Origin: Raillietiella orientalis
Taxonomy: Eukaryota
Assembly (NCBI GenBank): GCA_036172245.1
Contig: JAYWIR010000047.1
Span: 1,302,001 to 1,337,680 of the forward strand
Reading direction: 5' to 3'
DNA length: 35,680 nt
The notes under the pieces were generated by a model, which did no database searches, was not told the DNA's origin, and saw nothing but the letters and a program-made list of their open reading frames with translations. Numbering within the stretch: position 1 is the stretch's first letter; each line of letters begins with the position of its first letter. Positions 2,691 to 35,680 of this stretch are shown here, piece by piece. Made by a program: the position numbers and the translations under genes.

Positions 2691-3224
2691 TGTAACACAC
2701 GGAGACTTATGCCCTATATCCCAAATACAAACAGCAGTCCTCCCCCATCACAGTGTAGGTCCGCCAGCAGATGACATCCATTTAGATGGCTCTTCCACGT
2801 TTCCAATAGCAGAAGCTATTCAGGTGCTAACGTCCCTCTAAGTGCTATTTTTATCACTAACCCTCTCTCAATGTTGCTCCCTCAACAGCTGTGTATTCAA
2901 AGGCAGTTGAAACCTCTGTAAAATTGGACTTTACAAACATGTTGTAAAACTAAGCCTTATATAAGGTACAAATGTAAAAGGAATGTCGTAATAAACAAAC
3001 AAAATTCAGCACCAACTCGAAGAAGATGCTGATGAGCAGAAGGTTTAAACTGTCTCTCTGCCTTATTCCACGCTGCATTGCCATCCATGAACGTGAAGTT
3101 GCTGAAACAAAATGCTCACAATTTCCTGGTGTCAGCAGAAGCGCAAGTAGACCTGCAGGTTTGCCGGAAGACCAAGACTTTGCAAGTGCTCCAGAAGGAG
3201 TTCCTGGATGACGCAGTCGAACGT

Positions 3225-3720
3225 TTGGCCATTGGAATCCCCTGAGGCAATTCTAGGGACGCTTTAAAAGCCCTCTTCGTTGCTGACGCCCTTCGGCGTG
3301 CGGCCTCGTTAGCAGCCCTGTGCTGCCTTCGCCGGATCGTCGCCGCCTGGAGCAAGGCTAAGGGAGGACCACGCGACCAGGATGCCATCCATCCAGCCTC
3401 CCAATTCTTGAGGAAAGCGTCGCAATGGCCCCACCTGGATCCTGGAATACAGAAAGAGCTTGCCGGCATCCTGCGAAGGATGCAGCGGCCCCAGCAGCAA
3501 CAGTGATCCCTTCCCGTACCCTCCCACCTTTTCTTTTCTTTTTGTTTAGTTTTTTGTTTATCCCCCTTCCTTCTGCTGCGTGGTGGACCGTACCGGTCTG
3601 CGAACCGGTGACCCGGCAGGCTCTGTGTTTCTTCGTGCGTGGCTGGAGCACTGGTCCAGCCACAGCACGTCTTTGTTAAAGTTTGTTTTTGAAATAAACG
3701 CCCCGGCGAAACCCGGCTGA
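3225..3720 (+). mobile_element. 3' terminal fragment of L1/Tx1-like element (ORF2 C-terminus + 3' UTR)
   Basis: LAIGIP*GNSRDALKALFVADALRRAASLAALCCLRRIVAAWSKAK...QFLRKASQWPHL...KELAGILRRMQ aligns with the ORF2 end at about 14095-14377 (ALGIPDGGNPRGVYSLLFVRDALSPAAALAALCCIRGIVAAWSDAK...). Both copies continue tga-tcccttccc, a T-rich tract, AATAAA (3693-3698 here) and a ccgg hairpin. Confidence 0.9.
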
Positions 3721-3721
3721 A

Positions 3722-4660
3722 AATCGAAAGTTTTGTGCAGGTCGACTACGACTGCCAAGGTTTTCGGCGTTTCTTCTTGAGGCTTGTCCCTACGCCTGTG
3801 GTCGATAGCAGATATCGCTGCTTCTCGACCATCCAGCGCTACTGCAGTTGGAGCCATATCTGCGCGAAAAGGAGATTCGCATCCATGGACCGCCCGGGAA
3901 CAGCGTAGGTCTGCTCCGGACTTATCACAGACTCCGCGATCTTTTTACTCCCGCGACCCAAAGCTTCGACTACAGCTTGACGTTCGAATTCACTAATGTG
4001 ATGGAGCAGATTGTGAACAGTTGTTGAGGAACGCAACTCTTCGCCTTTAGGCAGGAGACGTACCTTCGCTGAGCGAAACAGGGGGGAACATCGCCCGTGT
4101 CTCGCATCTGCGACGAGAGTCACTGAGCCAAGGGGTTGGGCATCGTTGAGTGGTCCTGGAAGAACTCCGCGGGCGGGCCATCCTCGCCTGGCACCTTCCG
4201 CCTCTTGAGCCCCGCGATGGGGGAAGAGATTTACTGGGCTCGTGAAGGGCTCGTCGAGACGTCCGCATTCCTCCTCGTCAATAGCAGGAGCATCCCTCGG
4301 GAGAAGCAGTTCGGAGAGACTGTGTTCAGTGGGTGCCTCTGCGTACAACGAAAAGTAGTAGCGCCTGAGTGCTCATATGTCGGCCGAGACCGAGCATTCC
4401 TGGCCCGCGTCGTCCAGCAAACAAGACTGCCAGACCTGGCGCTCGACCCTTGCCTTCTAGTCTACCAGTCGTCGAACGTCCGCGTGCCTGGAGAAAGTTC
4501 GGGACAGCAGAAAAACTCTGCTGTTGGCCACTCCCTCTCCAAAGTCACGTGGAAGTAGGTGCGAGGGAACCGGCAGCACAACTCGTGAACCGATCTTTTC
4601 GGTACGTCCTAGTCCACGAGCTCCCCAGCGACGAAGTCTCGGAGGTGCTGGTGAAGATGC
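3722..4660 (-). mobile_element. Degenerate 5'-truncated L1/Tx1-like ORF2 fragment (linker to first RT motifs)
   Basis: Across frameshifts: LVD*DVPKRSVHELCC (vs VADWDRLKHRIHLFC in the intact ORF2), GLKRRKVPGEDGPPAEFFQDH, FRSAKVRLLPKGEEL, VISPEQTYAVPGRSMDAN (vs LISPVQTCAVPGRHMSDN), TLAVVVDLHKTFD (vs VLVFTDMEKAFD). Confidence 0.88.
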
Positions 4661-12134: not shown

Positions 12135-12690
12135 CCCCCGGGGGTTACCCGGTTCAAGCATTTCCTGTTTATTCTTTCAAAACTTCACACTAAAATTCTA
12201 TTGACTGGAAAAGTCCAGAATAGACCTAGGTCTCGGGGCAGCATCCTGAATGAGGGATGCACGGTCAGGATGTGATGGCCGCGATGCGGAACCGTCGCCT
12301 CAAGGTGGCAGACTGCGGGCTGCCACCTTGAGGAATCAGCATTTCTTGTCGACAAAAGTAGCAGATCCTCATAATGCTACCATCCTATGCAGATGACTCC
12401 CTCGTCGCAGATGTGCGAAGACAGCATACGAGGAACCGGTGACCAGCAGCCCTGCATCCCCGCGTCGAATGTACGGTGCCTCCATTTCGATGTGGCTTCG
12501 CGGGCTTTCGTGTCGCTCTTGGAGCTCAGGGAGCTCTCGCTACGCTCAGCGCTTCTCGTCTTGCATACGAGAATCTCCAGAAGAGACCTCTGGCATCCAA
12601 CAGGAGTCTCCTTGAAGGCTTTAGGGAGAACGTTCACGTGAGCACCCCTCGGAGGAAAAAATGCCCAAAGGTCCAGCGTCCCTTTGGGCA
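12135..12690 (-). mobile_element. Putative 3' end of another LINE family copy (structured 3' UTR)
   Basis: On the minus strand: an ORF ending ...GVICIGW*, three hairpins, gttttg, AATAAA (12173-12168), then a ccggg..cccgg hairpin. Same terminal layout as 3693-3716 and 14572-14595. Protein similarity is not convincing on its own. Confidence 0.4.
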
Positions 12691-14597
12691 CCTACTTTGA
12701 GTTGGTGCTGAGAGCGTACAGGGCGACTTTGGCCCCCTTGCCGAGCTCGTGCCCCGGCACGCCCGCCGTAGCAGCGTACGCCGACGATCTTCTGCTGATG
12801 TTACCCATGTCCACCCCGGCAGCCGCAGTCGAGGAATTCTTCGATCTGCTAAGCCGCGGGACGGGACTGCGGGTAAACAAGGCAAAGTCGTCTGTGGTGG
12901 AGGTTGGTGCGACGTGGGTTGGACGGCCTGACTGGATCCGCTCGGGGATCCCCGCGTCCAGGTACCTGAAGTACCTTGGTGTGCCGTTGGGAGACTTCTG
13001 CCCGTCAGAAGCTGGTCAGGTCGTCTCCAAAAAGTAGAGTCGGCGATCGGCCTGTTCCTGGAGGGCAAGTTCCTCTTGCCGGAACGGGCCGCGGTATGGG
13101 ACGCGTTCGCGGCTCCCATCCTTCGCCCCCAGCTTTTTGTATGCCCCGTTCCCCCCCAGTTGAAGAAGAGGACCAAGGACCTACTCTGCATCGCCCTCTG
13201 GGGCAAGGGGAGGCCTAGAGTGCCTCTGAAGGACTTATACGCTCCGCGTCGGGACGGCGGTCTTGGCCTCCTGACTCTGGAGCGCTTGGAAATCCAGGTG
13301 CGATGGCGCACGATGGCCATCGCAGCGAAGTTGTGGAGCACCTCTTGGTGCGTTCCGGCCCGCCTTCTTGCCAGCCGTGTCTCCAGGACGCAAGGACTAG
13401 CGTCTTATCTTCTGTGCTCCGGTCGGAAGATACGAAGATGCGGCCTGCTCCTTGGACGCATGTCCACCTTGGCTAAGGAGAACGGCTGGATGGTTTGTAG
13501 CCCCGCCAACTCCTCCGCATGGCTGGAGGAGACTTCTGGCACGTGGGCGAAGATAAATGAAAGAAACCACGAGACGTGGAACTGCCTGTGAGTCGGCTTC
13601 TACGCCCGCCGCACTCTTCGTGAAATTCTTCAATTTCCAGCGAGTTGCACGTGGACGGAAGGGACACCCCTTGCTACGGCGATGCCCTTCCTCCAAAGGG
13701 CGCTTCAGAACAGCCGGAAGCTGAGGTGGCAAGTCTGCTGCCGTATCGCAGGCAGAGAGAAGATGATGAGCGGCTGGACCATGGGAGAGCTGACAGACGC
13801 TACGACCCCTAGTGTCCAGCCGCGTGGATTAAGAAGATGGGGCGAGCTGCTCGGCATCCGGTCGGATGACCTGAAGTGGTCCCCGGTTCTAATTGGATCC
13901 AGGATTCTTCTGCTGAAGTGTCAAGAGTCGGCACTTCTGTGGCTGCATTGGGGTCTACCCTGCAACGCGCGCCGCTTCCACTGGACGCGGGGAAGAGTAA
14001 ATCCTGCGTGTGCCAGGTGTGGGGAGTGGGAGTCCTTCCCCCACCTCCTAGTTGACTGCCCTGCCCTCCGGATTCTTTGGGATCGTCTTGGAACGGCCCT
14101 CGGGATACCGGATGGTGGCAACCCCAGAGGCGTTTACAGTCTTCTCTTCGTGCGGGACGCCCTCAGTCCAGCCGCAGCCCTGGCAGCACTTTGCTGCATT
14201 CGTGGTATCGTGGCGGCCTGGAGTGATGCCAAAGATGAAGATTGCAACGTGACGGACGTCATCCAGTATGCTGTTCGCTTCCTGCAGAGAGCTACAGGAT
14301 GGCCCCAACTGGGAAGAATGAAGAAGGACCTCGAGGGCATCCTGCAAAGGATGGTCCCTCCCCGAAGTGGAACGTGATCCCTTCCCGGCCCTCCAAACTC
14401 CTTTTGTTTTTTGTTTTTCTGAATTTTATTTTATTTTATTTTTCTCCCCATCCCCTTCCACTACCGAGGAGAGCCACACCGGGCTGCGTCCCGGCGTCCC
14501 GGCAGGTCCGGTATTGCGTGACCGTTAGTGGGGCCTTGTACCACGTTCTGTAATGACCGAGAAAGTTTTTTAATAAAGGTCCCGGAGTACCCGGGTG
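12690..14597 (+). mobile_element. 5'-truncated L1/Tx1-like retrotransposon: RT core to zf-RVT, 3' UTR
   Basis: AAYADDLLL, LRVNKAKS, KYLGVPLG, a frameshift near 13010, LYAPRRDGGLGLLTL, an in-frame TGA at 13589-13591, and the zinc finger CARCGEWESFPHLLVDC. Stop at 14377, T-rich UTR, AATAAA at 14572-14577, hairpin cccgg-agtac-ccggg at 14581-14595. Confidence 0.95.
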
Positions 14598-14844: not shown

Positions 14845-15281
14845 CAGCGGCGGCAAAATTAGGCAGTGCGCCCGGTGCAATCCTTTATGCAGTGCCCGAC
14901 TTGACCGCACTCGAAGCATTTCGCTTCCGGTCAAGCGCCTACGCGGTACCCAAACTCCTTGCAGCCCGCGCAGAAGACGGGCTGCAGGCGATAGCGCACT
15001 GTACATCCTGGGAATATTCGTCGATCCTGACGATGCCCGGGATCCGCACATCCACGGAGAGCTTAATCCTCACCATGACCTCTCGCGAGAACAGTTCGTC
15101 CACGTAGTTGCCGAAGGACACCTCCTTCACCTCCTCTGTACCGGCAGAAGTGGTCCCACACGTCTTCCTGCGCGGTGTTGCAGTGTACGCCACGCAGGTA
15201 CACGGTGTTCGGAGGGTGGAGGGGATTGGGAGATCACCGTTCTTTGACAACGTTAGGCGATTTTCTTTGGAGTTGGTTTTG
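14845..15281 (-). mobile_element. Frameshifted ORF1 relic (RRM + CCHC knuckles) related to the intact ORF1
   Basis: NTVYLRGVHCNTAQEDVWDHFCRY / EVKEVSFGNYVDELFSREVMVRIKLSVDVRIPGIVRIDEYSQDV / VRYRLQPVFCAGCKEFGYRVGA*PEAKCFECGQVGHCIKDC vs intact TTVFLSGIGILTEREAIWDFLSQYGEVLEI...DIFSGELIAKIKLKDGAQIPGNVHIDESSQDVSVRYRQQPIFCTGCKNFGHRLGACPRSRCFRCGKLGHQVRNC. Confidence 0.92.
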
Positions 15282-15447
15282 CAGGAGTCTGCGCGAACGC
15301 AGCCTCCCAACCTAAAAATTATGCTTCCGAGTAACCCGCATTTGGGATTATCGCGGAGGTCAGCCCCGCCGGCGTGCAATGGCCAGGCCTCGCTCCGGAG
15401 GAATTGCCATCGTGAACACAATTTAGACCTCGAAGCCAGGTAAGTAT
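15282..15447 (-). ncRNA. U1: U1 spliceosomal snRNA, full length (gene or retrocopy)
   Basis: Minus strand: ATACTTACCTGG 5' end; SL1 AATTGT-GTTCACGATG-GCAATT; SL2 loop ATTGCAC (U1A site); SL3; Sm site ATAATTTTTAG; SL4 GGGAGGCTGCG-TTCG-CGCAGACTCCT. About 166 nt, Drosophila-like CCTCCGGAG. Confidence 0.95.
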
Positions 15448-16619
15448 GAAACTTCTATTGCACCCATTTCCCCTCCCCGTTCCGCATATCCACCTGCCCC
15501 GTATTGCCTCTTTACAAGACTTTCGCTTCCCTTGCTCTTGACCTTCTCCTTGCTTTGCCTCCGTCTCCTACGCTTCCCCATTCCCTTCCTCCTTTGCAGT
15601 ATCTGCTCTTCCGCTTTTCCTCCTGGATTTCATCTTCCGTTTTCGTTTTCCCTTTTGCTTAGCACTTTGCCTCGTCACCCCTCTCTCTCCCTCTGTTTTT
15701 CCATCTGCGCACTACTCGTCGCTGCATCCAGCGCCCCAGCCTCTTGCGATGGGGCACATGTCGCAACGAACGGTGCGCGCGCACGCGCAGAGAGTGCGCC
15801 TGTCTGCGCCGCACGCGCGACCCAGTCGTCGCAGGCAGACGTTGCGCGTCTCCCGAGACGGCCGTATGCATTCCGGCGGCTCACCCCACTTGAATGCTAT
15901 GGCCTTTGACTCTTTGTGCTGTTTCGCAAGCCCGTTTGCTTTACGTGAATGCCGTGTGCGTGTTCCACGAAGGAAAATTCCTTTCAAAGTTTCCTAACAA
16001 CGCTCCAGCATTCCGTCCTCACCATTCCACGCGGATGCAGCTGTTGAGCATAGTGAGATCTGCAAAACCCGTTGTCAGAATCCCCTTTATATTTTTCAAC
16101 GTATTCGTTATTGCTGTAAAGTGTGCTGCTGGGTAGTCAACCTGTCAAGCAAAGGCACTTTAGTGCGAGTGAGCTGTGCAGCCAGTCCAAAATGTCCAAA
16201 GTCTTCAAACGTGGTAACAATTCTTGTCAAATGCACCCATACTATTGCGTCTTTCACGTTTTGGGAGCACACGTCTGATGTGATGGGTCGATCCAATCGT
16301 GCAATGTGACCTTACGGTAAGATCTGTTGATCTGCGTGGACTTTCCGTAAGAAAACTATGGGAAGCCACGCGTTTCTCCGTGTTTCCACTTTGGGCACCT
16401 CAGGGATGCACATTTCCAGGCAAGTGAGTGGCCCTTATGGAAAACAAACGGTTCCACCGCTTCCTCTTCTTGTTGCACAAAATGTGTAGGAAAACGTGCA
16501 ACTTGGAACCATGTGCATTCATTTTGGACCCATGTCATGACTGGTACTGTATCCTTTCTCAACTACAACGAAACCTTCCTGTGCTTCAGGGAACCGGGAA
16601 GTAGGAAGAAGTCACCTGA

Positions 16620-16925: not shown

Positions 16926-19900
16926 CTGGAACCCTTCGCGGAATCGCGGTGGCGTGCCGCCTGTCCTGCTCGCAAGCGAACCCCGTGCTCGCAGCTTTTG
17001 GTTCCCGCTCGTTGCCCTTCCCTCTCCCCCTCTCATCCCAGTCCGCTGCCCAGCCTGGTCCACCACCACCACCCGTCCTCCGACACTTCGCTCCCGTGAA
17101 CCTGCATTCCCGTAGGCGCCTTTCCCATTTCGTCGCCGTCGCCCGTCGGTTCGGAGCGTCCTCTCCGCCTAATGGCGAACCTCAGCTAAACACGCAAACG
17201 TCGGGGATGCACCATCAGACCGCTGCCTGGATCCAGGATCCCTCGCAACAGCACCCAACCGATCACGACTTGGATACGCTGCACCCGCCACCTTCACCGG
17301 CGGCGGAGCCGCCATCCCGTCCGTCGCTCGAGGTCACTCGTGCCGCCGGCGACGGACGGACGCACCCGTGCATCCACGCCATTTTGCACAGCAACCCCAC
17401 GACCAGCATATTCAGGGCATTGAGCCACTGCGGGAGACCCCGCGCAGCGGCGCCAGCCGTGACACAGACGCCACTCTCCTTCCAGGATCGTCTTCCCTAG
17501 CTCCTCCGCACCTCCTCCAGGAAAGCAGCCCGCCTTGCGAGTGGCGCACCTAACCCCATCCGCTTACCACCCGCGGCCGCAACCCGCCTCGTCCTTCGCC
17601 CTCGCGCGCCTTGTAGCACTCCGGTTGCATTCCCTTTTCGCGTCTTTCCCTTTTGCGTGGTGTTAGTGCGCAGCATTTATCGCTTGCTGCTCCCAATGAC
17701 ATTTCCAAAGTCCCCTTTTCCAGAGTTCGTTTCTCGAATCTTACGGTTTCCTTGTGCATTTCCATTTGCGTTTTCGCATTTCCTTCGCTCTTTGTGTGGA
17801 ATTCGTTTGGTTTTCCTGCCGATGATTTGGTTTCTTTCCTTGCCATCTGGTGCCTCTTCTTCAAATTATCTGTTTGGAGTTCTGCGTGTTCGCTTGTTAT
17901 CGTTCCCTTGCTTCTGTAAAGCTCTCTCCCCTTCGTTCGTTGCAACTATTTGTCGTCATTCTTGTTGCATTTGCGCTTTTTCGCGAGCTTTTCCAGTGCT
18001 CCTTGAACTGTTGACCCGGTTTGTTCCCGTTCCTGCTAGATGCTGGTGCCTGCTGCACTTTATGCGTGTTTTCCTGTAATTGTTTCCCATTGGATTGCGC
18101 GTGCAGAATGTTTCAATTTGCCTTCCTGCCTGCTACGTTCCTGTCTTCCTTGCAATGGTCCTTGATACGGTTGCCCTGTCTTCCTCCTTCCCATCTCGGG
18201 TTGCAGTGCTTTTTTGTTTCCCTCATCAATTGCCTTCGAACGCCATTGAATTGTATGCGCGGTTTTGCTGGTCGCGAAACGTACCGAGGTCGGGATATGC
18301 GTTCCGTAGATGCTCCGTCTTGCGGGAAGAACTCCTCCTTGCTTGTGCGCATCCCGAAATCGTCGACTGGTGTTCGCTCGTTCCGTCTTTGATGCAGGTC
18401 TTCCGTGTGCTACCTGCTCTTCCGGTTTCTTCCGCCGGAGTTCGTCGGTCCGAGCTGAGTTGCGCGCGTCGTCGTGGTGGATGCGCCGTTTCCGTCGTGA
18501 ATGGCGCGAAGGTGATCCGCCTCTGCTCGCTCCGTCGATCCCGCATCTTCGCTTGCGGCCTTCCCGATGATGTTTTTCTTCCGGAGCGCTTTCCTCCTCC
18601 CCTGGTGTTGGCATCGTCCGAGCCCGCTCCGGGTGGTCCCGCAACCCTCCCCTCCTCCCAGATGACCCCTACCTCCTCCGGCATCGCCATCTCTGGGGAT
18701 CGGGGAACTGCTCTACGGCTCGGGGAAGCTTCCGCGCAGCCACCGGACCATCGCTACAGGCAACCAACCACCCACGGCTCGCTCGCCCCCGAGCGGGCGG
18801 GTCGCCGTGGTTCCGGCTCGCTTCCAACGCAGCTTCGGTTGGTTGCCTGGTTCCCCCGTGCCGCACGGGATGCTGTCGGAGGTCCTCGGGTCCGGGGGGA
18901 CTGCTGAGGACCTCCGTCGGGTGCGGCAGGACTCCACTTTCGGGTTTCTCCCTCCTCCCCCATCCCCGAGGCGAAGTGGCATCCGCTCCCGGAGGATCTT
19001 CGCGACGACGATCCGCATCCCACGGGCCCACGAGGGCTCCTCCTACGGGATGGACTGCGGCTGCGAGAAGCGCGCGCGCAACGAGAGAACGCACCCGGGA
19101 TGCGGGAATGGGTGGAGGCGGCGGGGTGCGCGTCCGCGGCCTTAGGGTCCCCCCTCAAAGGGGACGCCCCCGTGGGGAGGAGGGGGGCGGAACCGCGCGG
19201 GCGGGAGGCGAAAAGTTGGGGCGCGATGGGACGAGGGGAGTTCGCCAGTGGACCCGCGTGACTTCGGAAGTCGGACGTCGACCGCGTTGGCGTCGCGGAT
19301 TCGGATCTGCGCCGCCTCCATCGCGTCGGAATGGTCGGCGCCGAGAGCGGGTGGCGCGTCGTGGGCTTCGTGCCCCCTCCTCCCACCCACGGGGAGCCCC
19401 TCGGGGCTTTCAGAGCAGCGACGGGTTCGGATTGCCCCCGTCGGCCTGCAGGCTAACCGCAAGTGCAGCCTCCTGGAATCCCCCCAGGACCCACTCCGGG
19501 TTCTCGGGGTTCCCCCTGCAGTCGTGCAAATCGAGCTGCCAAACCGTGGCGATCGCTGAAACGAGTGCGACGCCAACAGCGGCGTCAGGACCGCCGCCGG
19601 CTTCGACGTCGAGGGCACCGGACGCGTCGCTCATCCCACCACCTCGACCTCGCGTATTCCGAGTTCTCGCGCACATCCTCGGCACCGTCGCTGCCTCGTT
19701 GCCCGAGGAAACGGGAGGACACCTGCGGGAACGCCCTCCCGTCGCGCCTGCGGACGGGAGGGTGAGCCTGTCGGGAGTCCCGGCTCCTTTGGAAACCGAT
19801 CCCTTCTCGCCGATAGAAATGCGCGAGGCGAGGGACGCTTCTGTCCGCGAGGCCGACCCGCAGTGGGAGCCTTCTAGGGCAGCGCGGTGTTCTCCGGACC

Positions 19901-21639
19901 GGGCTTTCCCGCGACTCGGCCTGGCGCGGGTGTGCCCCCCTCTATGGTTGCCCGAGGAAGAGCTCCCGCCCGTGAGATTTTCTCTCTGGTCGGTCTGCCG
20001 AAACCGTTCGGATTTCCATTTCCTTACATAGACGTCGCTGGCGCCTGTGCGAGCTCCTTGCCGTTCGCACACTCCCGCCACGCGTCTCCGGGTGGAAACC
20101 CATTCGAACGCCGTGGGCCTATTCTGTATCCGTGGTTCTCACTGGGCGGGGAGGGTGCAGCTTCCTCCCGCACGAAGGGCATGACCGCTGCGGAGGGCTG
20201 GGCATCCGCAGCTGTTTGAGGACGCTAGCACGGAAGGCTGCAAGGAAGCAGCCGCGGGGGGGGGGGGAAGGGGGGCAAAGTAAAGGTGGGTGTGCGACCG
20301 GTTGCTGGGATCGTCGGAACGCAAGCTTCGCTTCTCGGCCGGCCGCGGTTCCCGCGCATTCGCCGTCCCGACTCGACTGCTTGCGACTCCGGGGCAGGCG
20401 GACGGCGGGAATGCGTGTCGCCCGGCCACGCAAAGTGGAGTCTCCGCCCAGAGGTGGTGGCGTCCTCCTGCAGCACGAGAGGCGTGGCGTGGCGTCGCGT
20501 GCTTCTCCCTGCCATGACAGGCGCGCACGGGGCTGGGACGAGTGCTGTGCTCACGCTCCTCGTGCCGCAAAGCGCTTCGGGCAACGCGCGCTGACCCCCG
20601 TGGGTCATCCACGCCCGCCACGCTGCTTGCGCCCCCGTAGGAGCGGCGAAGGCAGCAGCAGGAATGGAGTCCCGTCGAGAACGGCTGCTGGACCTGACCG
20701 TGGTGCCACAGCTACAGGGCGGGCTATGACTCGGGGAGGGGAGGACGCTACCACCACCGGGGGCCTCGCCTGCCGCGTGGCCCCTGCCCGCCTCCCTTCT
20801 TCCTTTCGCCCGTGGAGACACAGCGCCCGGCCACGCGGTACAACGGCTCCGCCCAACCTCTTTCCCCGCTCCTCAGGCACGCCCTCGAGAGCTGGGTCTG
20901 GCGAGACGGGCGTTGAGTCCACCCAACCCAGTCTGGAGCACTCTTCCCCTTTTCCCGCGCGGTGCCGGAGGAGGAACGGCTGTGCGCGTTTCCGTGGCGA
21001 GGATGGGCCTTCCGGCTTGCACGCGCAGCTGCGGTCCCGGCGCCACCCCGAGTCGAGTGCGAGCTGCGGGGCCTCTCTTGCCGGCAGCGGCCGCCCAGCC
21101 CACGAACGTGCGTGCGCCCACGGATCGGGTGGCTTTACGGCTTCCATCCGCCCCCCAACTCCAACCTCCCCTCGCGCAGCCAACAAAGTGCGCGCGCGGG
21201 CTGTGCCCTCTTCAGATGCGGGGGCACTGCAAGAAGCGGGAGTTGGCACGAGGAGTCACCGAGCGCGGCCGGTCCGACGCGCGCAGGATGCGCGCCCCGT
21301 AGTGGTGATGCAGACGCCGTGACGGCAACGGCGCGGATGGCGGACGATCGATCTCCGTTCTCCCCTTTCCTGATACGACACATCGATGCAGGTTCGAGTT
21401 GGGATGCAGGTTCTAATATTTCTTAGGACAAAATCACAGGTTTCATCATTTACGATCTCCGATGTTTCACTTGAAGTCAGTTTTTCCATCAATGTCTTTT
21501 TCTAGATCGCCTCGATCATCTTTGTGAAGCACAGATAACACATATGCTACCACAGTAATAAATGCGATTGCCGACATAATATGATTACCAAGAAAGCACT
21601 GTAAATCCATTAGCAGCTATAATTGAATGTCAACGTACG

Positions 21640-21719
21640 CCTATGACCTGGCTTCGAGGTGAATTATGAGCACGAATCCGGAAAGTATTTTTGGGAAGCA
21701 GCACGTGTAGTGCTTTGCT
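21640..21719 (+). pseudogene. U1: Internally deleted U1 snRNA relic
   Basis: acctggcttcgaggt (21646-21660) is identical over 15 nt to the U1 copy at 15447. Then aattatgagcacgaa (SL1 stem and loop), a jump at cgga to a Sm-like atttttg (21687-21693), and a terminal hairpin agcagcac-gtgta-gtgctttgct. SL2/SL3 are absent. Confidence 0.7.
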
Positions 21720-21834
21720 AGCAATTGCTGTCTACATATTCTACGTGTTCTACATATTCTACGTCCGGTTTTCGCTTTTGTGTTTCATCGAAAGCGTCAA
21801 CGCTACGCATCGACTACCCGGACGAACGGCTATC

Positions 21835-27764: not shown

Positions 27765-28828
27765 GATGGTGCGTCGCGGGAATCGCGTAGGGGATCCGGG
27801 ACCATTCTCGCAGGTTCCTGGGAAGGATCTCGAAGGTCCGGCGCTGCCAAGGTCCGGCTGGTGAGCGGAGCATCTGGTCACCGAACTCTGCAGCGCTTCC
27901 TGCAGGCTGCAGCTGCACAGCCGAAGCCTCCGTGCCGTCATGGGGAGGCTTGCAAGCCACGCGCATCTACTTCGGGACGTGTCGGTCCTTCATTCGAGCC
28001 CGCCAGGTCGCCACCCCCGATGAAGCTCCAGGACTGCGAAGATCCGGTGCGAATCAACTGGCCGCTGCGGAAATGCAGGCGACCCACCGGCCGACAAAGC
28101 GAAAGGGTGCGACTGCGTCGCTACGGAGCAGAATTACGAGCTCACTCCGCCTACGCCGCGGCTCCACGAGAAGCGCAACTTGAATGTCGCAACCACATTA
28201 ACGATGAAAGAAGAAAATGATGTTAATCCACCACAATGGCATAATGTACCAACGTCAAGATGGAAACAGCATGCGGAATCGTAATTGAGACCAATCACAA
28301 CATCCAGAATCGAAAAGTTTCTTTCGAACCACGAAAAAGGCGTAACATTTGGCGGCCGACGATTCGAAAACCGTTCGAATTCCCGTTCGGCTGGATCAAA
28401 TAATTTCAGCCTCTGGCGGGGTTCCACCGAATGCAACAGGAGATCTGGGGAGGAAACCTCTGAATTGGCAACCCTGCTCTACCGATTGTCGAACCTCCCC
28501 CGTCTCCAAGGGTAACAGAACAAACTCGAGGAAACAATAAAAGAAAAGAAAATGGAAAGCATTCGATCGATGTCGTAAGGCGAGCGACACACCCTATCGC
28601 GGATGCACTACACCACCCGAAAAACGGTCGCTTTCCTTCCCGGAAGAACAGGCTGGATCGCCGTTGCCCAGAACTGGCCGCCCTGCAACCCGCAATGCTC
28701 TCTCCCACACGTCGTCTTGGAGAAGAAGCGCCAGCAAGAGGGTGAGAACAGGATCGAGGTGCTGCTTGAGACCGCGACCTCCTGAAACGACGGTAGGTGG
28801 ATCATCAACACGGAAACAACAACAAAAT

Positions 28829-28849
28829 ACACACACACACACACACACA
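28829..28849 (+). repeat. (AC)10 microsatellite
   Basis: Perfect AC run. Confidence 0.95.
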
Positions 28850-30781
28850 AGACAATTTCTTCTTTCGGGTAGGATCACGAAGAAGAAGCTTGCGTTGGAA
28901 CCGACGATCGGGATGCAACCCCGTGAGGCGCACAAGGAACGACGAAACGAGCGATGTCATTCCCCGGAGCTATGAACGGTCGCAGGGGGCGGCGAAAAGC
29001 CTGCGAGGCACGGGGCGCACTTTCCTGCTGCGTACAATGAACAGGAGGGTTCGGGGGACGCAAGCGACTCGGAAGGCAAACATTTCGGCAGGAGCAGGAA
29101 GGCTGCCCGAGCCTGCGACGTGCAGGCGCGAGTGAGGACGCACAAAACCAAAAAGAGAAGGAGCAGCGCTCAAACGAATCGGAGTTTGGTAAAGGCGCGC
29201 TTACGCACGCGAGCGCGCCGACGCTGCTGCTCAGTGCACAGCCCGCGAGTACGCTGAAGTGATCAGCAGAAGCGCGAGATGGCACTCAGCAAGCAGACGG
29301 GCGCCACGGGAACACGCCGCCGCCGAACATTCAACGGGTCCGCAATCAAGGAGCAATAGACAAAAACAGCCGCATCCCAGCTGAAGAGCAGTTGGATGCG
29401 TACGCGTTCGCCGAATGCGATGGTCCATACAGCAGACGAGACCACTCCTGGTCGACAGACACAGCATCGTCGTGAAAAAGCAGAAAGGCGGAAGAGCGAA
29501 AATCCACAGAACGTCACAAAACGAACCGCAGAAGGAAGGAACGAACCACACAACCGAACACACCACCACTACACGAATCGCGAATCGCACACCCTACGAA
29601 TCTTGAGGCTCGGGAAGACAAAAACTCGAAGGAATACCATGAAGGCAACTGATTGGAATGCCAGAACCCCAAAAAAAAGGCTCCTCGCAGGATGCGGAAG
29701 GTCTCCCCACCTTGATCCGGGCAACAAATCGACGGACACGAACCAATGCAGGGACAACCTTTTTTACGAGATGCACCGGAAAACTCTACGAAGCCATCCC
29801 GCGCCCGAAAAGTGCCAGATGAACAGCACGGACAAGAAAGAGATCGCACAAGCAGGACAGAGCGGCACTGGTCAGCAAGTGGTTGCAAAAGAAAAAGTCT
29901 TTGGGATGCAGAAATTTTCCGGAACAGGTAACAGATTCTTGGCGATCACTCTTCGACACCGGGGGCAAGTTGCAAGCCCGAGTAGGAGACAACCGAACGG
30001 AAGCAGGAAATGCTAACGAAAGCGGTGAAAAAACACCTTTCGATGGAAAGAACACACGGGATCCGCCGAACCGCAGCATTCGCCACTGAAAAATGAAGGA
30101 ATCATAACGAAGCGAGAAATTGCAGAACAAACTCGAACAGCAAGAATTCAGCCTCTTACGCGGGTCGCACCATTCATTCTTCAGCAGAGCACCCGCGGGC
30201 ACGTAATTGAGACTTGCGAAAACGAGCGCACACGCCAAACACACAGCGAACGGATGCATTCTCAACATAGATGGAAAAAAGAAGATGAAGAAGAAAAGAT
30301 GCGTCCCCAAAAAGTGCGAACATGTCAAAAAGAACCATACAGCAGAAATACAATGCGAAATTGCAGAGCGAGAACTTTGACAGATACGAAAAGAAGTGGC
30401 ACCTCACACGTTGCACAGCAACATGAACAACCGATTCGTACAGCCGATGGACATGTGTTCGATGGGGCAAACTGCAAAAGGAAATAGAAAAGGTGTAATC
30501 GGAAGAAACGCGCAGGATCAGCAGCAACCGCCGCTCCAAAACCTGCCAAAGACTCCTCACATTAAGATAAAACAAAAAGTACTTCAACACATTGGCAGAA
30601 AAGACTTAAATGAAAAAATTTTCCAGTACTACCCACATATAACACACATAAGTACGAGCACATAACGTCAAAGGATGGAGAAATATCATTCTCTACACCG
30701 TGTTTACAATCTTTCTTCCCACAGTAAATACAGAAGAGGTAACGTCGCTTCCTTTCACCCAACCTGCCCTTATGCGTAGTT

Positions 30782-31260
30782 AAAAAAAAAAAAAAAAAAA
30801 CAAGTACTCCTCTTACAGCAATTCGTTACCTTGGGCGAAAAATCACGAAGAGCATCCAAAGAAAATTCAAAAAACGGCCAAATTCAAAACACGAAACTAG
30901 CAGCATCTAGTGGAAGAAAATCAAACCACGAAATAAAAAAAATTTCAAAATAAACGAAGAAAAAAAACACATCACACGAAAAATAGACGAAACACACAAA
31001 AAAGAACAAAGAAAAAAAAAAAATCACTACACACAACAAAAATGGTAAAATAATAGAAAAAAAAATAGTTCAAGAATCAAAACAAAGAGGGAAGCATGAA
31101 GCAAATTCACAAAACCGCGAAAAATAACAAACTAACACAAAGTCAAAAACAAACTCAAATAACAAGAAAGACAAAAAAAACCAAAACAAAAAGCAAAATA
31201 AAAAAACCACTAAACAATACTCTCAAAAACACCAATTCAACAAAACCTACCACAAATAAA
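30782..31260 (+). repeat. A19 tract followed by A/C-rich low-complexity sequence
   Basis: A run at 30782-30800, then strongly A-skewed sequence up to about 65 nt before U4. Confidence 0.85.
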
Positions 31261-31324
31261 ACGCATACGTAACTACGCACAAATACTGCCCGCGGAATCC
31301 GGACCATCAAAAACTTTAATCGCC

Positions 31325-31463
31325 AGCCTTGCGCACGGGCAGTACGTAGGCGAGGAAGGCGACTGAGCCGCGATTATTGCTAGTTGAAAACTTTACCCAA
31401 TACCCCGCCAAGGCAGTGCGTAAAACCACTGCCGCGGCAATTTTTGTGTGCCCTCACAGGGCA
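31325..31463 (+). ncRNA. U4: U4 spliceosomal snRNA, full length (gene or captured copy)
   Basis: AGCCTTGCGCACGGGC (U6 stem II strand); kink-turn stem-loop GGC-GAG-GA-AG-GCGA-CT-GA-GCC; conserved GCGATTATTGCTAGTTGAAAACTTTACCCAATACCCCGCC; 3' stem-loop ggcagtg/cactgcc; Sm site AATTTTTG (31439-31446); terminal hairpin tgccct-cac-agggca. 139 nt. Confidence 0.93.
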
Positions 31464-31630
31464 AGTGCCTGCCGAAGAGTAGTGTGGAAGTGACTGTGCC
31501 ACCGAGGGAAATACCCGACAGCAGCAGCAGCGCCGAAGGACCCGAGGTGGAAGTCCTCCAAACAAGAAGTGCGGCAGCAACGGCAGCCGCAAGGAGGCAC
31601 ATCCAAGGAGTGGAGCAGCCGTCGACCCCC

Positions 31631-33400
31631 ATGGAAGAACACATGGAGGTAATATGCGGCAGTGGCGAGGAGGCAGCGGCGACGCCGAGGGTCGCGCCCG
31701 CGGCAGGCTTTGCTGCGCCGGCGGCGGCGATGCCGAGGGTCGTGCCCGCGGCGACGGCGATGGAGGTCGTGCCCGCGGCGGCGACGTCGAGGATCGCGCC
31801 CGCGGCGGGGAAGGTCGTGCCGGCGGCGGCGATGCCGAAGGTCCCGCCTACGGCGACATCGACGACGGCGACGACGAGGGTTGCGCCCGCGGTGGCGGCG
31901 GCGTCCCAGGCGGGAGCCGCGGGCGTCCACGCGGCGCACACAGGGCAAGGTGCGACGCCATCTTGCTCGGCGGCGGCGGCGAAACCGCCGTTTTCGTATG
32001 CGGCGGTGACGGCGGGGCAGGCCTCTGCCCTGCCAAACAGGAAATTCGGGAAGCCTGCGAGTGAGAACATCACTCGAACCAAAGAACCCATGGTGAAGTT
32101 GAGTCCAGCGTCCAAACCCATCACCTTTAAAACCGGGCTGGTCCGGTTTAATAACATAAGGCAGGTGTATTGTGCGCTGTATAGGACAAATGTCGACTTT
32201 GATCGATTGCAGGCGATAATCCCGAACTCAGCGGGATTCATCCTGTATACTGACTGCGAAGAGCTGCGGGAGGCCCTTATCGAAAAGGGCATCAACATTC
32301 AGGGGAAGATGGTGCAAGGCATTGGCGAAATGCCTTACACGACAGTCTTCCTAAGTGGAATTGGCATCCTCACCGAGAGAGAAGCGATATGGGACTTCCT
32401 GTCCCAATACGGAGAAGTTCTGGAAATAAAGACCCAGAACATCTCCGGAGACATCTTCTCGGGCGAGTTGATCGCCAAAATTAAATTGAAGGACGGGGCG
32501 CAGATCCCAGGCAATGTCCATATCGACGAATCGTCGCAAGACGTTTCCGTCAGATATAGGCAGCAGCCGATCTTTTGCACCGGCTGCAAAAATTTCGGGC
32601 ACCGCTTGGGCGCCTGCCCAAGGTCGCGTTGCTTCCGCTGTGGGAAGTTGGGCCATCAGGTCCGAAACTGCAGCATGCCCGAGCTTTGCTCCTTTTGCAA
32701 GCAACCAGGGCATGCGAAATGGAGTTGTCCGGAGTATGCAAACTACCGGACGATTAGAGGAGAGTCCCCGGTGAGGGAAAGGGTGCTAGCTGAGGTAATC
32801 AAACCTCAGCTAGCAAAGCAGAGGAAAACAAGAGAGGCCGCTCCGGTTTCGGCAGACGGCTTCGTGGAGGTGGGGAAGAAGGGGAAAAGTAAGATGCTCG
32901 CAAGGGAGCAACAGATTCCTCAAACCCCGGTAGTTGAAGCGGCGGTAGGCGAGAGTATGGAGGTGGCGGAGGAAACGGAGAAGGAGGAGAAGACGCCAGA
33001 ACCAGTCCCGGAGACGCAGGAGGCCCTGCAACTTTCCGAGGAGGTGGTCAAACTGGCAGAGGAGGTTCGCCAGGGCCAACCGGAGGCGGAACAGGCAAAA
33101 ATCCTGAACCGCATCTGCGAGGTCCAAGACGACGTAAACCGCATGGTTGTAGAACCAGAGCGGGAAAAGCTGGAGGACCAGCTGGGCGACCTGAAGGCGG
33201 CATTCTGTGCGACGGTCTCGCTGGAGACCCTTCCGCGCAAGGTGGTCGCCAAGGCGGAACGCTCTGTGGACGAACAGGAGTCCACTGATCACACCGGCAC
33301 CGAGAGTGATGCCGGCAGTGAAAAACCCACTTCTTCAGCAGGGAAACTGAATAAGTCTCCCCAGCAGAAGAAGCTAAGGAAGGCAAGAAAGGTGAAGTAG
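31631..33400 (+). CDS. ORF1 nucleic-acid-binding protein (Ala/Pro repeats, RRM-like domain, three CCHC knuckles, acidic/basic tail)
   Basis: CTGCKNFGHRLGAC, CFRCGKLGHQVRNC, CSFCKQPGHAKWSC. First ATG is at 31631. The frame is open from at least 31448, but that GTG lies inside U4. Confidence 0.93.
   Translation: MEEHMEVICGSGEEAAATPRVAPAAGFAAPAAAMPRVVPAATAMEVVPAAATSRIAPAAGKVVPAAAMPKVPPTATSTTATTRVAPAVAAASQAGAAGVHAAHTGQGATPSCSAAAAKPPFSYAAVTAGQASALPNRKFGKPASENITRTKEPMVKLSPASKPITFKTGLVRFNNIRQVYCALYRTNVDFDRLQAIIPNSAGFILYTDCEELREALIEKGINIQGKMVQGIGEMPYTTVFLSGIGILTEREAIWDFLSQYGEVLEIKTQNISGDIFSGELIAKIKLKDGAQIPGNVHIDESSQDVSVRYRQQPIFCTGCKNFGHRLGACPRSRCFRCGKLGHQVRNCSMPELCSFCKQPGHAKWSCPEYANYRTIRGESPVRERVLAEVIKPQLAKQRKTREAAPVSADGFVEVGKKGKSKMLAREQQIPQTPVVEAAVGESMEVAEETEKEEKTPEPVPETQEALQLSEEVVKLAEEVRQGQPEAEQAKILNRICEVQDDVNRMVVEPEREKLEDQLGDLKAAFCATVSLETLPRKVVAKAERSVDEQESTDHTGTESDAGSEKPTSSAGKLNKSPQQKKLRKARKVK
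31675..31895 (+). repeat. Degenerate ~27-bp coding minisatellite (AAxPRVxPA) in ORF1
   Basis: About seven units of gcga(c/t)gccgagggtcg(c/t)gcccgcggc and variants. Confidence 0.85.
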
Positions 33401-33416
33401 GACTCCCCCCCCTTTC

Positions 33417-35680
33417 ATGGCCTCGTCGCTGTCCAGTGCCAGGAGGATTAACATCGCCTCCTGGAATGTGAATGGACTGACGGACCAGGGAAAGAGAAAG
33501 ATCATCATGCGGACCATCGCAAAATTTAAGGTGGTGTGCCTACAAGAAATCCACCGTCTCGGGCAACAGAACGCCCTGGAGATGGAACGCCGATTCGACG
33601 GACAACTGTTCGCCAGCGAGGGACAGAAGAAGACCATGGGGGTGGCGATCCTCATCAAGAACGAGCTCGCCCACACCATTTTGGAAACCTTCTGTCAGGT
33701 ACCTGGCAGAGTAATCGGCGTGCGACTGTCCTGGTCCAGTAACGTTCACCTCTTCCTGGTGAACGTCTACGGACCGCACAAGATCAAGCATCGGTGCGCG
33801 GAGAAGCTGCAAGAAGAACTCCGCAAACGAGTGGCACCGAAGGACATAGTTATCGTCGCTGGGGATTTCAACATCCTGGATGAAATTAAATATTCTCAGG
33901 ATGCAAGAGGAAGAGCGGCGTATCGGCGGCTGTCCGACGAGTTCGGACTTGTGTGGCGAACAGCTAGCCACAAGCCGATCGATCACGTCCTCCACAGTGC
34001 GGAGATAGACAACCGCATCCAGGGTTTTCGTGACATCCCACACCTGTTGTCCGATCACCCAGTGGTACGGTTTACACTCCGCACTGAGAATCCTCGTAAA
34101 GAAAAGGCCACCAGGGCGGCGCTCATCTGCATGCCCGCCTGGTTCGAAACGCTTCCCGGTCACCAGGAAGTCATCGAGGCGATCCTGCAAGATACTACCA
34201 TCCGCAGGGTCGCCGACTGGGACCGATTGAAGCACAGAATCCATCTGTTCTGCAATATGCAGTACTTCTGTAAGCGCATGAGGCAGGAAGCGTACCGGGA
34301 GCTGAACATCCAAGATCGCTCCCTCTCGAAGTACTTCGATCAGTACGAGAGTCGGTACGTCTTCCAGAACACGAAAAGGGAGGTCGGCGTGCTGGAAAAG
34401 AGGAATCTGGCCACAGATATCTTCTGCATCCAGTGCGACGGCCAAGAGCGGCACACGTCGGAGGATATCGCGGAATCCTTTCACAGGCATTACGCGAGAC
34501 ACTTCCGACGACAAGATCTCTGCCGCTCGAGTCAGCAAGCCTTCCTGGGTTACCTCGAGAAGAGGACGGACGACCTCCAAAGAAGTAGACTGGAGGAGGA
34601 GTTCTCCGAAGAGGAAGTGAAGACTGCGTTTGGGCAGCTTCGCAAGGATGTGGCAGCAGGCCCTGATAGTGTACCCATCTCGCACTATCAGCGGTACCTG
34701 CACGCCTACCTGCGTTTGTTCCACCAGTTGACACTCTGCATCCGAGAAGAAGGACGACTTCCGGGATCCTTCTACGAGAGTAGGATGAGATTGCTGCCAA
34801 AAGGAGGCGATCTCACGCAGATCGCTCAATGGAGGCCGATCTCGATCCTAAACTCAGATGCCAAGTGGTTGGCGAAGATCTGGTCCAACCGCTTAGGCAG
34901 GGTCATGTCGAGGCTGATCTCTCCGGTCCAGACGTGTGCAGTCCCAGGACGACACATGTCTGACAATGGTAAGTGTGCCCAGGCCACCGTCGGTCTCAGC
35001 CGATACGTCGGCGAGAACCTGGTGCTGGTGTTCACCGACATGGAGAAGGCCTTCGACTCCATCGACCACGGGATGCTGCTGAAGGTTCTGGAGAAGCTTG
35101 GGCTTCCGAAACACTTCAGCAACTTCGTGAGGGCGGTACTCCAAAACCAGTACTGCCGTATCAAAATCAACGGCCAAGAGACGGCAGCAATTAGGATGGA
35201 ACGAGGAGTCCGGCAGGGCGACTCGCTAAGTCCAATGCTGTTCGTCATATACATGGAGGCGCTGTCTTCTTACATCGAGAGAAGCGGTCGTCTATCAGGG
35301 ATCTCCATTGATGGTCAGCACCTGACCCATCTGGCATACGCAGATGATCTCCTCTTCTTCATCAAGGGAGAGAGGAATCAACGAGCGTTCCTGGATGTGG
35401 TCGACCTCATGGAACGGGGACTGGGCTTGAAAATCAATGCCCAAAAGAGCCAGCTTTTGCCCGTCGGAATCCTGAACCTCTCCACTCTAACGGGGAGTGG
35501 ATTCCGTACGGTGGACACGGCCAAGTACCTGGGAGTCTACATCGGCGACGACTCTGCGTCGAAACTGCTGTGGACGGAAATCCTGGGGAAAACGGCCAAC
35601 GAAGCAGCGAATTACACTCGAGTGGACTTTAACATGAAGCGAAGAGCCAACCTGTGGAACGGAGTACTTCTACCAAAGAT
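33417..35680 (+). CDS. ORF2: APE endonuclease + reverse transcriptase (3'-incomplete)
   Basis: Hand translation shows no stop over 754 codons: IASWNVNGL, VCLQEIH, NVYGP, AGDFN (33858-33872), IDH, LSDH, WRPISILNSDAK, TDMEKAFDSI, RGVRQGDSLSPMLF, LAYADD (YADD 35337-35348), KYLGV. Confidence 0.97.
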   Translation, partial: MASSLSSARRINIASWNVNGLTDQGKRKIIMRTIAKFKVVCLQEIHRLGQQNALEMERRFDGQLFASEGQKKTMGVAILIKNELAHTILETFCQVPGRVIGVRLSWSSNVHLFLVNVYGPHKIKHRCAEKLQEELRKRVAPKDIVIVAGDFNILDEIKYSQDARGRAAYRRLSDEFGLVWRTASHKPIDHVLHSAEIDNRIQGFRDIPHLLSDHPVVRFTLRTENPRKEKATRAALICMPAWFETLPGHQEVIEAILQDTTIRRVADWDRLKHRIHLFCNMQYFCKRMRQEAYRELNIQDRSLSKYFDQYESRYVFQNTKREVGVLEKRNLATDIFCIQCDGQERHTSEDIAESFHRHYARHFRRQDLCRSSQQAFLGYLEKRTDDLQRSRLEEEFSEEEVKTAFGQLRKDVAAGPDSVPISHYQRYLHAYLRLFHQLTLCIREEGRLPGSFYESRMRLLPKGGDLTQIAQWRPISILNSDAKWLAKIWSNRLGRVMSRLISPVQTCAVPGRHMSDNGKCAQATVGLSRYVGENLVLVFTDMEKAFDSIDHGMLLKVLEKLGLPKHFSNFVRAVLQNQYCRIKINGQETAAIRMERGVRQGDSLSPMLFVIYMEALSSYIERSGRLSGISIDGQHLTHLAYADDLLFFIKGERNQRAFLDVVDLMERGLGLKINAQKSQLLPVGILNLSTLTGSGFRTVDTAKYLGVYIGDDSASKLLWTEILGKTANEAANYTRVDFNMKRRANLWNGVLLPK

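What the first reader, a model, noticed from the sequence alone, without database searches (positions are those of the whole stretch)
31325..31640. Full-length U4 snRNA fused with no spacer to an intact LINE
Seen: the U4 terminal hairpin ends at 31463 and LINE-like sequence in the open ORF1 frame continues at once, with the first ATG 168 nt later. Upstream is only A/C low-complexity DNA, and I found no convincing promoter motif shared with the U1 upstream region. Known: snRNA-LINE chimeras usually involve U6 and dead, truncated L1. Inference: a U4-headed transcript could give a coding-competent element a 5' end with Sm and kink-turn protein sites.
Basis: partly seen in the sequence, partly recalled or inferred. 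Interest (0 to 1): 0.85.

Follow-up and report, generated by a model that had tools for sequence, protein, structure and literature searches.

The report
U4 snRNA copy heading a LINE
A complete copy of the U4 spliceosomal RNA sits directly in front of a coding-competent L1-like jumping gene, most likely because the element's reverse transcriptase hopped onto a U4 RNA at the end of copying, a known kind of accident that seems to recur in this genome.

Summary
Rfam calls a full-length U4 at 31325-31461 (88.1 bits). It runs without spacer into sequence continuous with an L1-like element: ORF1 with a CCHC knuckle, then ORF2 with APE endonuclease and RT, open to the window end.

Two details need correcting. 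The open frame just after U4 is compositional: 3 of 6 frames of 31468-31951 have no stop. Conserved ORF1 starts near M223 (nt 32090): 149 of 150 listed homologues match only from residue 231 on.

The window's only other snRNA, U1 (15447-15282, minus), is also followed within 66 nt by ORF1-like sequence, 5'-truncated and with stops. The U4 3' hairpin 16-mer recurs 14/16 at 31934-31949. One read-contig joins U4's 3' end to 31952 (weak).

Best reading (0.55): template-switch retro-chimeras, as for U6/L1, fungal MGL chimeras and snRNA-headed SINEU. Here the partners are Sm-class snRNAs and the LINE is near full-length.

Not shown: target-site duplication (3' end outside the window), sibling 5' ends, any transcript. 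A functional or heritable U4 head is possible but unsupported. New member of a known kind; moderate interest.

The parts
30900..31260 (+). A-rich, T-poor low-complexity DNA upstream of U4 (62% A, 18% C)
31309..31324 (+). 16 nt directly upstream of U4, beginning with an A run after TC; candidate left target-site duplication. Inference only, because the right copy would lie outside the window
   Evidence: sequence; no second copy in the window
31325..31467 (+). Full-length U4 snRNA copy. The Rfam match ends at 31461. The U4-derived part is taken to 31467 because one read-contig shares U4 sequence up to 31467 and then diverges
   Evidence: 88.1 bits; joint 31467 to 31952 (weak)
31450..31465 (+). 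R1: 16-mer of the U4 3' terminal hairpin
31468..31933 (+). Segment S: GC-rich (71%), T-poor. Holds a 24-48 nt tandem array at 31672-31848. No homologue, no Rfam family. Either the element's variable 5' UTR or a third, unidentified partner
31934..31949 (+). R2: 14 of 16 match to the U4 3' hairpin 16-mer, 484 nt downstream of R1
   Evidence: family D5; 2 matches in window, 0.05 expected, 0 of 100 shuffles reach 2
31952..32089 (+). Proximal 5' UTR before the conserved ORF1 start. 31952 is where the second junction form resumes
32090..33400 (+). ORF1 conserved core, from M223 to the TAG stop at 33398-33400, with CCHC zinc knuckles
33417..35678 (+). ORF2 from its first ATG: APE endonuclease and reverse transcriptase, open to the end of the window (incomplete)
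15282..15447 (-). Full-length U1 snRNA copy
   Evidence: 122.2 bits, model 1-166 of 166
14874..15215 (-). ORF1-like sequence starting 66 nt after the U1 3' end. Matches ORF1 residues 304-417 at 32% identity with two in-frame stops; 5'-truncated and decayed
   Evidence: E 2.6e-17

Best explanation
This is a retro-chimera. While an L1-like (L1/Tx1-type) LINE RNA was being reverse-transcribed at a nicked, A-rich target, the reverse transcriptase reached or neared the 5' end of its template. It then switched onto the 3' end of a U4 snRNA and copied that RNA to its 5' end. The inserted DNA therefore reads U4-LINE. On this reading the U4 is a processed copy, not a resident gene, and brings no promoter. 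The same accident produced the older, truncated U1-LINE chimera at 15447-14874 (minus strand). Shown: the anatomy of both junctions, the L1-like coding capacity, and the repeat of the U4 3' end inside the 5' region. Inferred: the template switch itself, the target site, and the order of events.
For: (1) Both snRNAs that Rfam finds in the window (2 of 2) are full-length and in sense orientation. Each is followed by ORF1-family sequence at its RNA 3' end. U4 runs on without a gap. U1 ends at the last model position (the conserved terminal CCUG), and ORF1 homology starts 66 nt later, at ORF1 residue 304. A constant snRNA 3' end with variable LINE break points is the signature of template switching onto an RNA. 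(2) The two LINE parts are different families (32% identity in ORF1) and the two snRNAs differ, so a sequence-specific endonuclease site is an unlikely common cause. (3) The upstream regions share no promoter motif. Both are purine/A-rich low complexity on the element's strand. U4 is preceded by TC then an A-run-led 16-mer, compatible with an L1-type nick (consensus TT/AAAA as given in PMC11838501, section 4 read). (4) ORF2 is closest to human LINE-1 ORF2p (E 2.5e-50, against 3.3e-26 for R2). L1 and Tx1 enzymes are the ones documented to make such chimeras: PMC11838501 section 4 (U1-U6 and 5S), PMC4494074 sections 17-18 (recurrent U1/U2 addition, Tx1-Mar), PMC2104539 section 9 (MGL parts up to 5461 nt). 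(5) The surrounding DNA is a nest of decayed LINE fragments.
Against: No target-site duplication could be checked: the 3' end of the U4 element lies beyond the window, and the U1 element is cut short. No sibling 5' ends could be aligned because no genome is held. In human, U1 and U4 chimeras are 'extremely rare' (PMC4476161, passages), so two in 35 kb needs a different enzyme or cell biology. The U4 and U1 copies are undecayed (88 and 122 bits), as real genes would be. The 16-mer of the U4 3' end recurs 484 nt downstream, which a single simple jump does not explain. Weak small matches (GCGGAA at -33/-38, and a GCA(A)TACG-like word near -58, read by eye) leave a shared promoter not fully excluded.
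Confidence: 0.55

Rival explanations
1. Resident snRNA genes with LINEs inserted right at their 3' ends, by target preference as in snRNA-gene-targeting non-LTR elements. The LINE could then be expressed by read-through from the snRNA promoter.
For: Both snRNA copies are intact. The U4-side break point appears fixed at 31467 in two junction forms (weak). Tx1-clade and NeSL-type elements that target snRNA genes are described (PMC4640811 and PMC3706591, abstracts in the search listing; family names recalled). Variable 5' truncation of the LINE fits this too.
Against: Known snRNA-targeting elements insert inside the gene and split it; here both snRNAs are complete. Two different LINE families would each need to cut exactly at the mature 3' end of a different snRNA. 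No shared upstream promoter block. The loci lie in TE debris and low-complexity DNA.
Confidence: 0.17
2. A heritable U4-headed LINE lineage. A U4-LINE chimera stayed retrotransposition-competent, so the U4 head, or a remnant of it, is now part of the family's 5' end and is renewed by further additions.
For: The 14/16 copy of the U4 3' hairpin lies at 31934-31949, immediately before the point (31952) where one read-contig joins U4 to the LINE. ORFs are intact. There is precedent in recurrent snRNA head addition and propagation in SINEU (PMC4494074, sections 17-18).
Against: No sibling copy with a U4 head and different flanks was seen. The second junction rests on one contig with only 30 letters on the U4 side. 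An exact 11-mer of U4 alone is at chance level in this window: 4 such matches outside the U4 copy itself, including the one at 31939-31949. A Sm-class head carries no internal promoter (PMC4494074, section 18).
Confidence: 0.12
3. RNA-RNA ligation of U4 to LINE RNA before reverse transcription, the alternative route proposed for U6/L1.
For: It gives the same DNA structure. It is named as an alternative in PMC11838501, section 4.
Against: That the proposed route depends on the special 3' end of U6 is recalled, not read here. U4 and U1 are Sm-class pol II transcripts. Nothing in the sequence distinguishes ligation from template switching.
Confidence: 0.05
4. Assembly artefact joining a U4 gene to a LINE.
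For: U4 is multi-copy, so contigs break inside it.
Against: A 354-nt read-contig with 1 mismatch runs from 31438 to 31791 across the join. It has 30 letters on the U4 side, one short of the tool's own bridging rule, and the run may be the assembly's own sample. The U1 case shows the same architecture independently.
Confidence: 0.03

Closest known systems
snRNA/LINE-1 chimeric retrocopies of mammals (U6/L1 type; U1-U6 and 5S reported)
   Same: Full-length snRNA in sense orientation directly 5' of LINE sequence. An L1-like APE+RT enzyme. A junction at the snRNA's RNA 3' end.
   Different: The partner here is a Sm-class pol II snRNA (U4, and U1 nearby), which in human is extremely rare (PMC4476161, passages). 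The LINE part is near full-length with open ORF1 and ORF2 rather than a short 3' fragment. TSD and poly(A) tail were not seen because they lie outside the window.
SINEU retroposons with U1/U2-derived heads, mobilised by Tx1-Mar LINEs (Kojima 2015, PMC4494074)
   Same: Sm-class snRNA sequence added, repeatedly, to the 5' end of a retroposon by template switching. The same unsolved question arises of how a head without an internal promoter is transcribed.
   Different: SINEU are short, non-coding and proven multi-copy families. Here the body is an autonomous LINE, the head is U4, and propagation of the head is not shown.
Magnaporthe MGL-LINE bipartite and tripartite chimeras (Gogvadze et al. 2007, PMC2104539)
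   Same: The LINE part can be nearly full-length (up to 5461 nt). Break points recur. Double template jumps give three-part elements, a possible model for U4 + segment S + LINE.
   Different: The 5' partners there are WEIRD RNA and Mg-SINE, not snRNAs. No micro-homology was found at those junctions, whereas here a 14/16 repeat of the U4 end marks the second junction.
snRNA-gene-targeting non-LTR retrotransposons (Utopia, PMC4640811; Keno of the Tx1 clade, name recalled)
   Same: Non-LTR elements physically associated with snRNA genes.
   Different: Those insert at a fixed site inside U2 genes and split them. Here U4 and U1 are complete and the LINE starts at their RNA 3' ends.

Membership tests
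U4 spliceosomal snRNA (RF00015) | Covariance-model match over the whole model above the gathering score | tested here: met
   88.1 bits against 46, model 1-138 of 138, E 1.5e-18
Functional U4 gene locus | Upstream promoter element shared with other Sm-class snRNA genes of the genome; 3' box downstream | tested here: not met
   No similarity between the 200 nt upstream of U4 and of U1. LINE sequence takes the place of any 3' box. Only one comparison gene was available, and it may itself be a retro-copy.
Template-switch snRNA/LINE chimera | Full-length snRNA, sense, directly 5' of LINE sequence | tested here: met
   The U1 case has at most 66 nt before recognisable ORF1 homology.
Template-switch snRNA/LINE chimera | Target-site duplication and endonuclease motif enclosing snRNA plus LINE; LINE 3' end with tail | not testable with these tools
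   The element runs off the window at 35680 and no genome is held. No second copy of either upstream flank exists in the window.
L1-superfamily (L1/Tx1-like) non-LTR retrotransposon | N-terminal APE endonuclease plus RT in ORF2, closest to L1 ORF2p | tested here: met
   Pfam Exo_endo_phos 1.6e-15 and RVT_1 6.3e-33. PDB best hit is human LINE-1 ORF2p at 2.5e-50, against R2 at 3.3e-26. No tree was built, so the clade within the superfamily is not resolved.
L1-superfamily (L1/Tx1-like) non-LTR retrotransposon | ORF1 with CCHC knuckles (RRM-plus-knuckle type) | tested here: inconclusive
   CCHC met (21.4 bits against cut-off 20.8; knuckle matches only). An RRM was not tested. ORF1 relatives are CCHC/ZCCHC3-like proteins of animals.
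snRNA-gene-targeting non-LTR elements (Utopia/Keno type) | Insertion at a fixed site inside the snRNA gene, splitting it | tested here: not met
   Both snRNAs match their Rfam models end to end.
Heritable snRNA-headed retroposon family (SINEU-like) | Several copies with different flanks sharing the same head-body junction | tested here: inconclusive
   Only one further junction form was seen, on one read-contig with a 30-letter side. No protein or locus of the same organism was found in the databases.

The most novel reading that the evidence does not exclude
In this genome an L1/Tx1-like LINE lineage repeatedly acquires Sm-class snRNA heads, and at least one U4-headed ancestor went on to retrotranspose. 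The decayed copy of the U4 3' hairpin at 31934-31949, sitting just before the element's proximal 5' UTR, would be what is left of that earlier head, with a fresh full U4 added on top. A U4 head would then be a tolerated, perhaps useful, 5' module of an autonomous LINE (binding of Sm and kink-turn proteins, cap hypermethylation, nuclear re-import).
Probability: 0.12. Interest if true: 0.7.

Novelty: new member of a known kind. Interest (0 to 1): 0.38.

Why it matters
Chimeras between small nuclear RNAs and LINEs record what the reverse transcriptase meets at the end of copying. They are also the proposed birth route of snRNA-headed retroposons. Here the partners are U4 and U1 rather than U6, and one LINE partner still has both reading frames open. 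If such copies can move again, this would be a caught-in-the-act intermediate between an accident and a new composite element. If not, it is one more processed pseudogene. It still shows that in this organism Sm-class snRNAs are within reach of the LINE enzyme, unlike in human.

Tried and rejected
Whole-genome search for siblings: no genome is held for this window.

Earlier scan notes: nothing on this genome or on this sequence. The word search gave only unrelated findings in other genomes.

Protein databases:
- ORF2, 'longer' lengths: 9 proteins at E <= 0.001 among 3080 candidates, best 29% identity.
- ORF1, 'near' lengths: none among 8000 scored candidates, probably swamped by Ala-rich words.
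- phmmer of ORF1 against 1.84 billion representatives: 972 hits at E <= 0.001, none at 1e-30 or below, best 34% identity. No protein of the same organism is in reach.
- Metagenome scan with ORF2: 8 loci at 23-33% identity, all distant, useless for 5' ends.

Sequencing runs: 3 listed, all DNA contigs, and no RNA holder listed, so expression could not be examined. When laid, runs X2 and X3 covered only low-complexity bins. X1 gave short contigs. Summed contig depth is about 7.5-9.4 over 31500-31699 and about 15-21 over 32000-32299. That would fit two copies sharing the LINE body, but the tool warns that such depth is not a copy number, so I do not rely on it.

TSD search for the U1 and U4 upstream flanks inside the window: only the flanks themselves were found.

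Known RNA families:
- Segment S: only sub-threshold chance hits.
- tRNA heads: none.
- Other snRNAs, or HDV-like or other ribozymes at the LINE 5' end: none at E <= 1.

Pfam scan of 140 of the 187 stop-to-stop ORFs of at least 90 aa (those starting up to 26574): one weak RVT_1 hit only. The remaining 47 were not scanned, apart from ORF1 and ORF2.

Twin priming as the origin of the convergent U1-LINE / LINE-B arrangement: rejected, because the orientation is tail-to-interior, not head-to-head.

Reading segment S as ORF1 coding sequence: rejected as unsupported.

Full report
**What is there**

Rfam finds exactly two families above their gathering scores in the 35,680-base window. One is a U4 snRNA at 31325-31461 on the plus strand (88.1 bits, gathering 46, model positions 1-138 of 138). 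The other is a U1 snRNA at 15447-15282 on the minus strand (122.2 bits, model 1-166 of 166). A permissive rerun added only two weak hairpin hits near 1656-1706. No tRNA is present.

From inside the U4 hairpin a frame stays open from 31424 to 33400. It is followed after a TAG at 33398-33400 and a 16-nt spacer by a second frame. That frame starts at ATG 33417 and is still open at the window's last base.

- The first frame has a CCHC zinc knuckle.
- The second has an APE-type endonuclease (Exo_endo_phos, E 1.6e-15) and a reverse transcriptase (RVT_1, E 6.3e-33).
- Among solved structures ORF2 is closest to human LINE-1 ORF2p (E 2.5e-50), well ahead of R2 proteins (3.3e-26).
- The nearest database proteins are distant (23-34% identity). 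They are L1-like ORF2s of plants, fungi and oomycetes, and CCHC/ZCCHC3-like ORF1 relatives of animals.

So the element is an L1-superfamily non-LTR retrotransposon. It is coding-competent as far as the window shows. Its clade within that superfamily was not resolved by a tree.

The first in-frame ATG is at 31631, 168 nt after 31463, as stated. The DNA at 30900-31260 is 62% A and 18% C. The 200 nt upstream of U4 and of U1 share nothing: best local alignment score 15 against a mean of 17.4 for shuffles, and one common 6-mer at a similar offset, which is about what chance gives.

Two points need correction.

First, the open frame directly behind U4 is not evidence of coding. In 31468-31951 three of the six frames have no stop and the six frames hold four stops in all. 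The region is 71% G+C with 10% T, and its GC by codon position (0.70/0.66/0.78) lacks the pattern of the ORF1 core (0.58/0.40/0.67).

Second, a phmmer search of ORF1 against 1.84 billion representative proteins gave 972 hits at E <= 0.001. In 149 of the 150 listed, the matched stretch begins at query residue 231 or later (the other begins at 159). Several hits start there with their own residues 4-10. The conserved ORF1 therefore most likely starts at M223 (nt 32090). The 622 nt between U4 and that ATG are untranslated or of other origin.

**The second case in the same window**

tblastn with ORF1 finds a match on the minus strand at 15215-14874: residues 304-417, 32% identity, E 2.6e-17, two in-frame stops. 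It begins 66 nt after the last base of the U1 copy and runs in the same direction.

So both snRNAs of the window (2 of 2) are complete and in sense orientation, and both are followed at their RNA 3' end by LINE ORF1 sequence. One is followed by a near full-length element. The other is followed by a different, decayed family, truncated in the middle of ORF1.

The surroundings are TE debris:
- an RT fragment and C-terminal region on the plus strand at 12642-14590;
- a degenerate RT on the minus strand at 4230-2417;
- a short plus-strand LINE 3' fragment at about 3273-3725.

**A repeat of the U4 end inside the element**

The 16-mer of the U4 terminal hairpin (31450-31465) recurs with 14 of 16 identities at 31934-31949, 484 nt downstream on the same strand. 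With up to two mismatches the pattern has two matches in the window, against 0.05 expected, and 0 of 100 shuffles reach two.

The caveat is that the exact core is only 11 nt. BLAST found four exact 11-mers of U4 scattered in the window outside the U4 copy itself, including this one. The weight therefore lies in the position and the flanking matches, not in the 11-mer.

When contigs of three public DNA runs were laid on 30700-33699, one contig of run X1 joined 31467 directly to 31952, skipping exactly these 484 nt. Another contig (354 nt, one mismatch) ran from 31438 to 31791, as in the window. X1 may also be the sample the window was assembled from, so this is weak and not independent.

Taken at face value, the organism holds two forms that share U4 up to 31467 and then differ. 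One continues with segment S (31468-31933). The other continues with the proximal 5' UTR at 31952. Segment S has a 24-48 nt tandem array. It has no Rfam family, and the ORF1 search found no protein relative for its translation (one of the 150 listed hits reaches back to residue 159).

**Mechanism**

The most economical reading is the known one for snRNA/LINE chimeras. During target-primed reverse transcription the enzyme leaves the LINE RNA and continues on the 3' end of a nearby small RNA. It copies that RNA to its 5' end, and the composite is integrated.

This explains several features:
- a complete snRNA;
- sense orientation;
- a junction at the RNA's 3' end in two different snRNAs;
- different break points in two different LINE families;
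- the lack of a common upstream promoter;
- the low-complexity A-rich flanks that an L1-type endonuclease prefers.

The literature read here supports each element. L1 chimeras are reported with U1-U6 and 5S, arising by template switching or RNA ligation (PMC11838501, sections 4 and 22). In human, however, U1 and U4 do so 'extremely rarely' (PMC4476161, passages). Fungal MGL chimeras carry 230-5461 nt of the LINE, have recurrent break points and include double jumps (PMC2104539, abstract and section 9). U1/U2 sequences are added repeatedly to the 5' end of Tx1-mobilised SINEU (PMC4494074, abstract and sections 17-18).

The internal repeat could mean one of three things:
- (a) an older U4 addition whose last 16-18 nt survive, with S and a fresh U4 added later;
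- (b) a homology-guided jump that made the second form;
- (c) a deletion allele between two short repeats.

I cannot separate these.

**Rivals**

LINEs inserted next to resident snRNA genes (0.17) would also give a fixed snRNA-side junction and variable LINE truncation. But it needs two families to cut precisely at the mature ends of two different snRNAs. It also conflicts with the missing promoter similarity, and known snRNA-targeting elements split their target.

A heritable U4-headed lineage (0.12) is the interesting case. It is hinted at only by the internal repeat and the second junction form.

RNA ligation (0.05) and misassembly (0.03) are minor.

**What is not shown**

- No target-site duplication: the 3' end is outside the window.
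- No alignment of sibling 5' ends: no genome is held, and no same-species sequences appear in the protein or metagenome collections.
- No transcript evidence.
- Supplementary tables of the cited papers were not opened.

**Verdict**

The interpretation as a chimera is right. The proposed function of the U4 head is untested.

This is a new member of a known kind. It is unusual for its partners (U4 and U1), for the intact LINE, and for signs of recurrence within one locus. Interest is moderate (0.38).

Noticed in passing
window 21640-21720 (+): A 15-nt exact match to U1 positions 7-21 (E 0.004). By eye it is followed by a U1-stem-loop-I-like stretch, an Sm-site-like AUUUUUGG and a hairpin. It could be a short U1-derived relic or a mini-U1-like RNA. 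Rfam gives no U1 call even on the small region.
   Followed up: partly
window 12642-14590 (+) and 3273-3725 (+): Two copies of the 3' part of another LINE family ('LINE-B'), about 65-78% alike. Both end in AATAAA followed by a short CCCGG...CCGGG inverted repeat, with no poly(A) tail. Both abut minus-strand LINE fragments.
   Followed up: partly
window 2417-4372 (-): Degenerate reverse-transcriptase remnants in several frames (ORF2 residues 408-718 equivalent), interrupted by the short plus-strand LINE-B 3' fragment.
   Followed up: no
window 28200-31260 (+): About 3 kb of strongly strand-asymmetric, T-poor DNA (15% T; AT skew 0.31-0.45). It includes a (CA)n run near 28830 and a 19-nt A run at 30782-30800. 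Possibly old retro-copies and their tails.
   Followed up: no
window 15448-15740 (-): The DNA upstream of U1 is A/G-rich low complexity (37% A, 41% G on the U1 strand). It mirrors the A/C-rich tract upstream of U4.
   Followed up: no
window 18571-21322 (+): A very GC-rich block (0.68-0.70) with long open frames (486 and 448 aa) that match no Pfam family.
   Followed up: no
window 1656-1706 (-): A hairpin with sub-threshold Rfam matches to two unrelated families (38.1 and 37.1 bits, both below gathering), in the AT-rich first 2 kb of the window.
   Followed up: no
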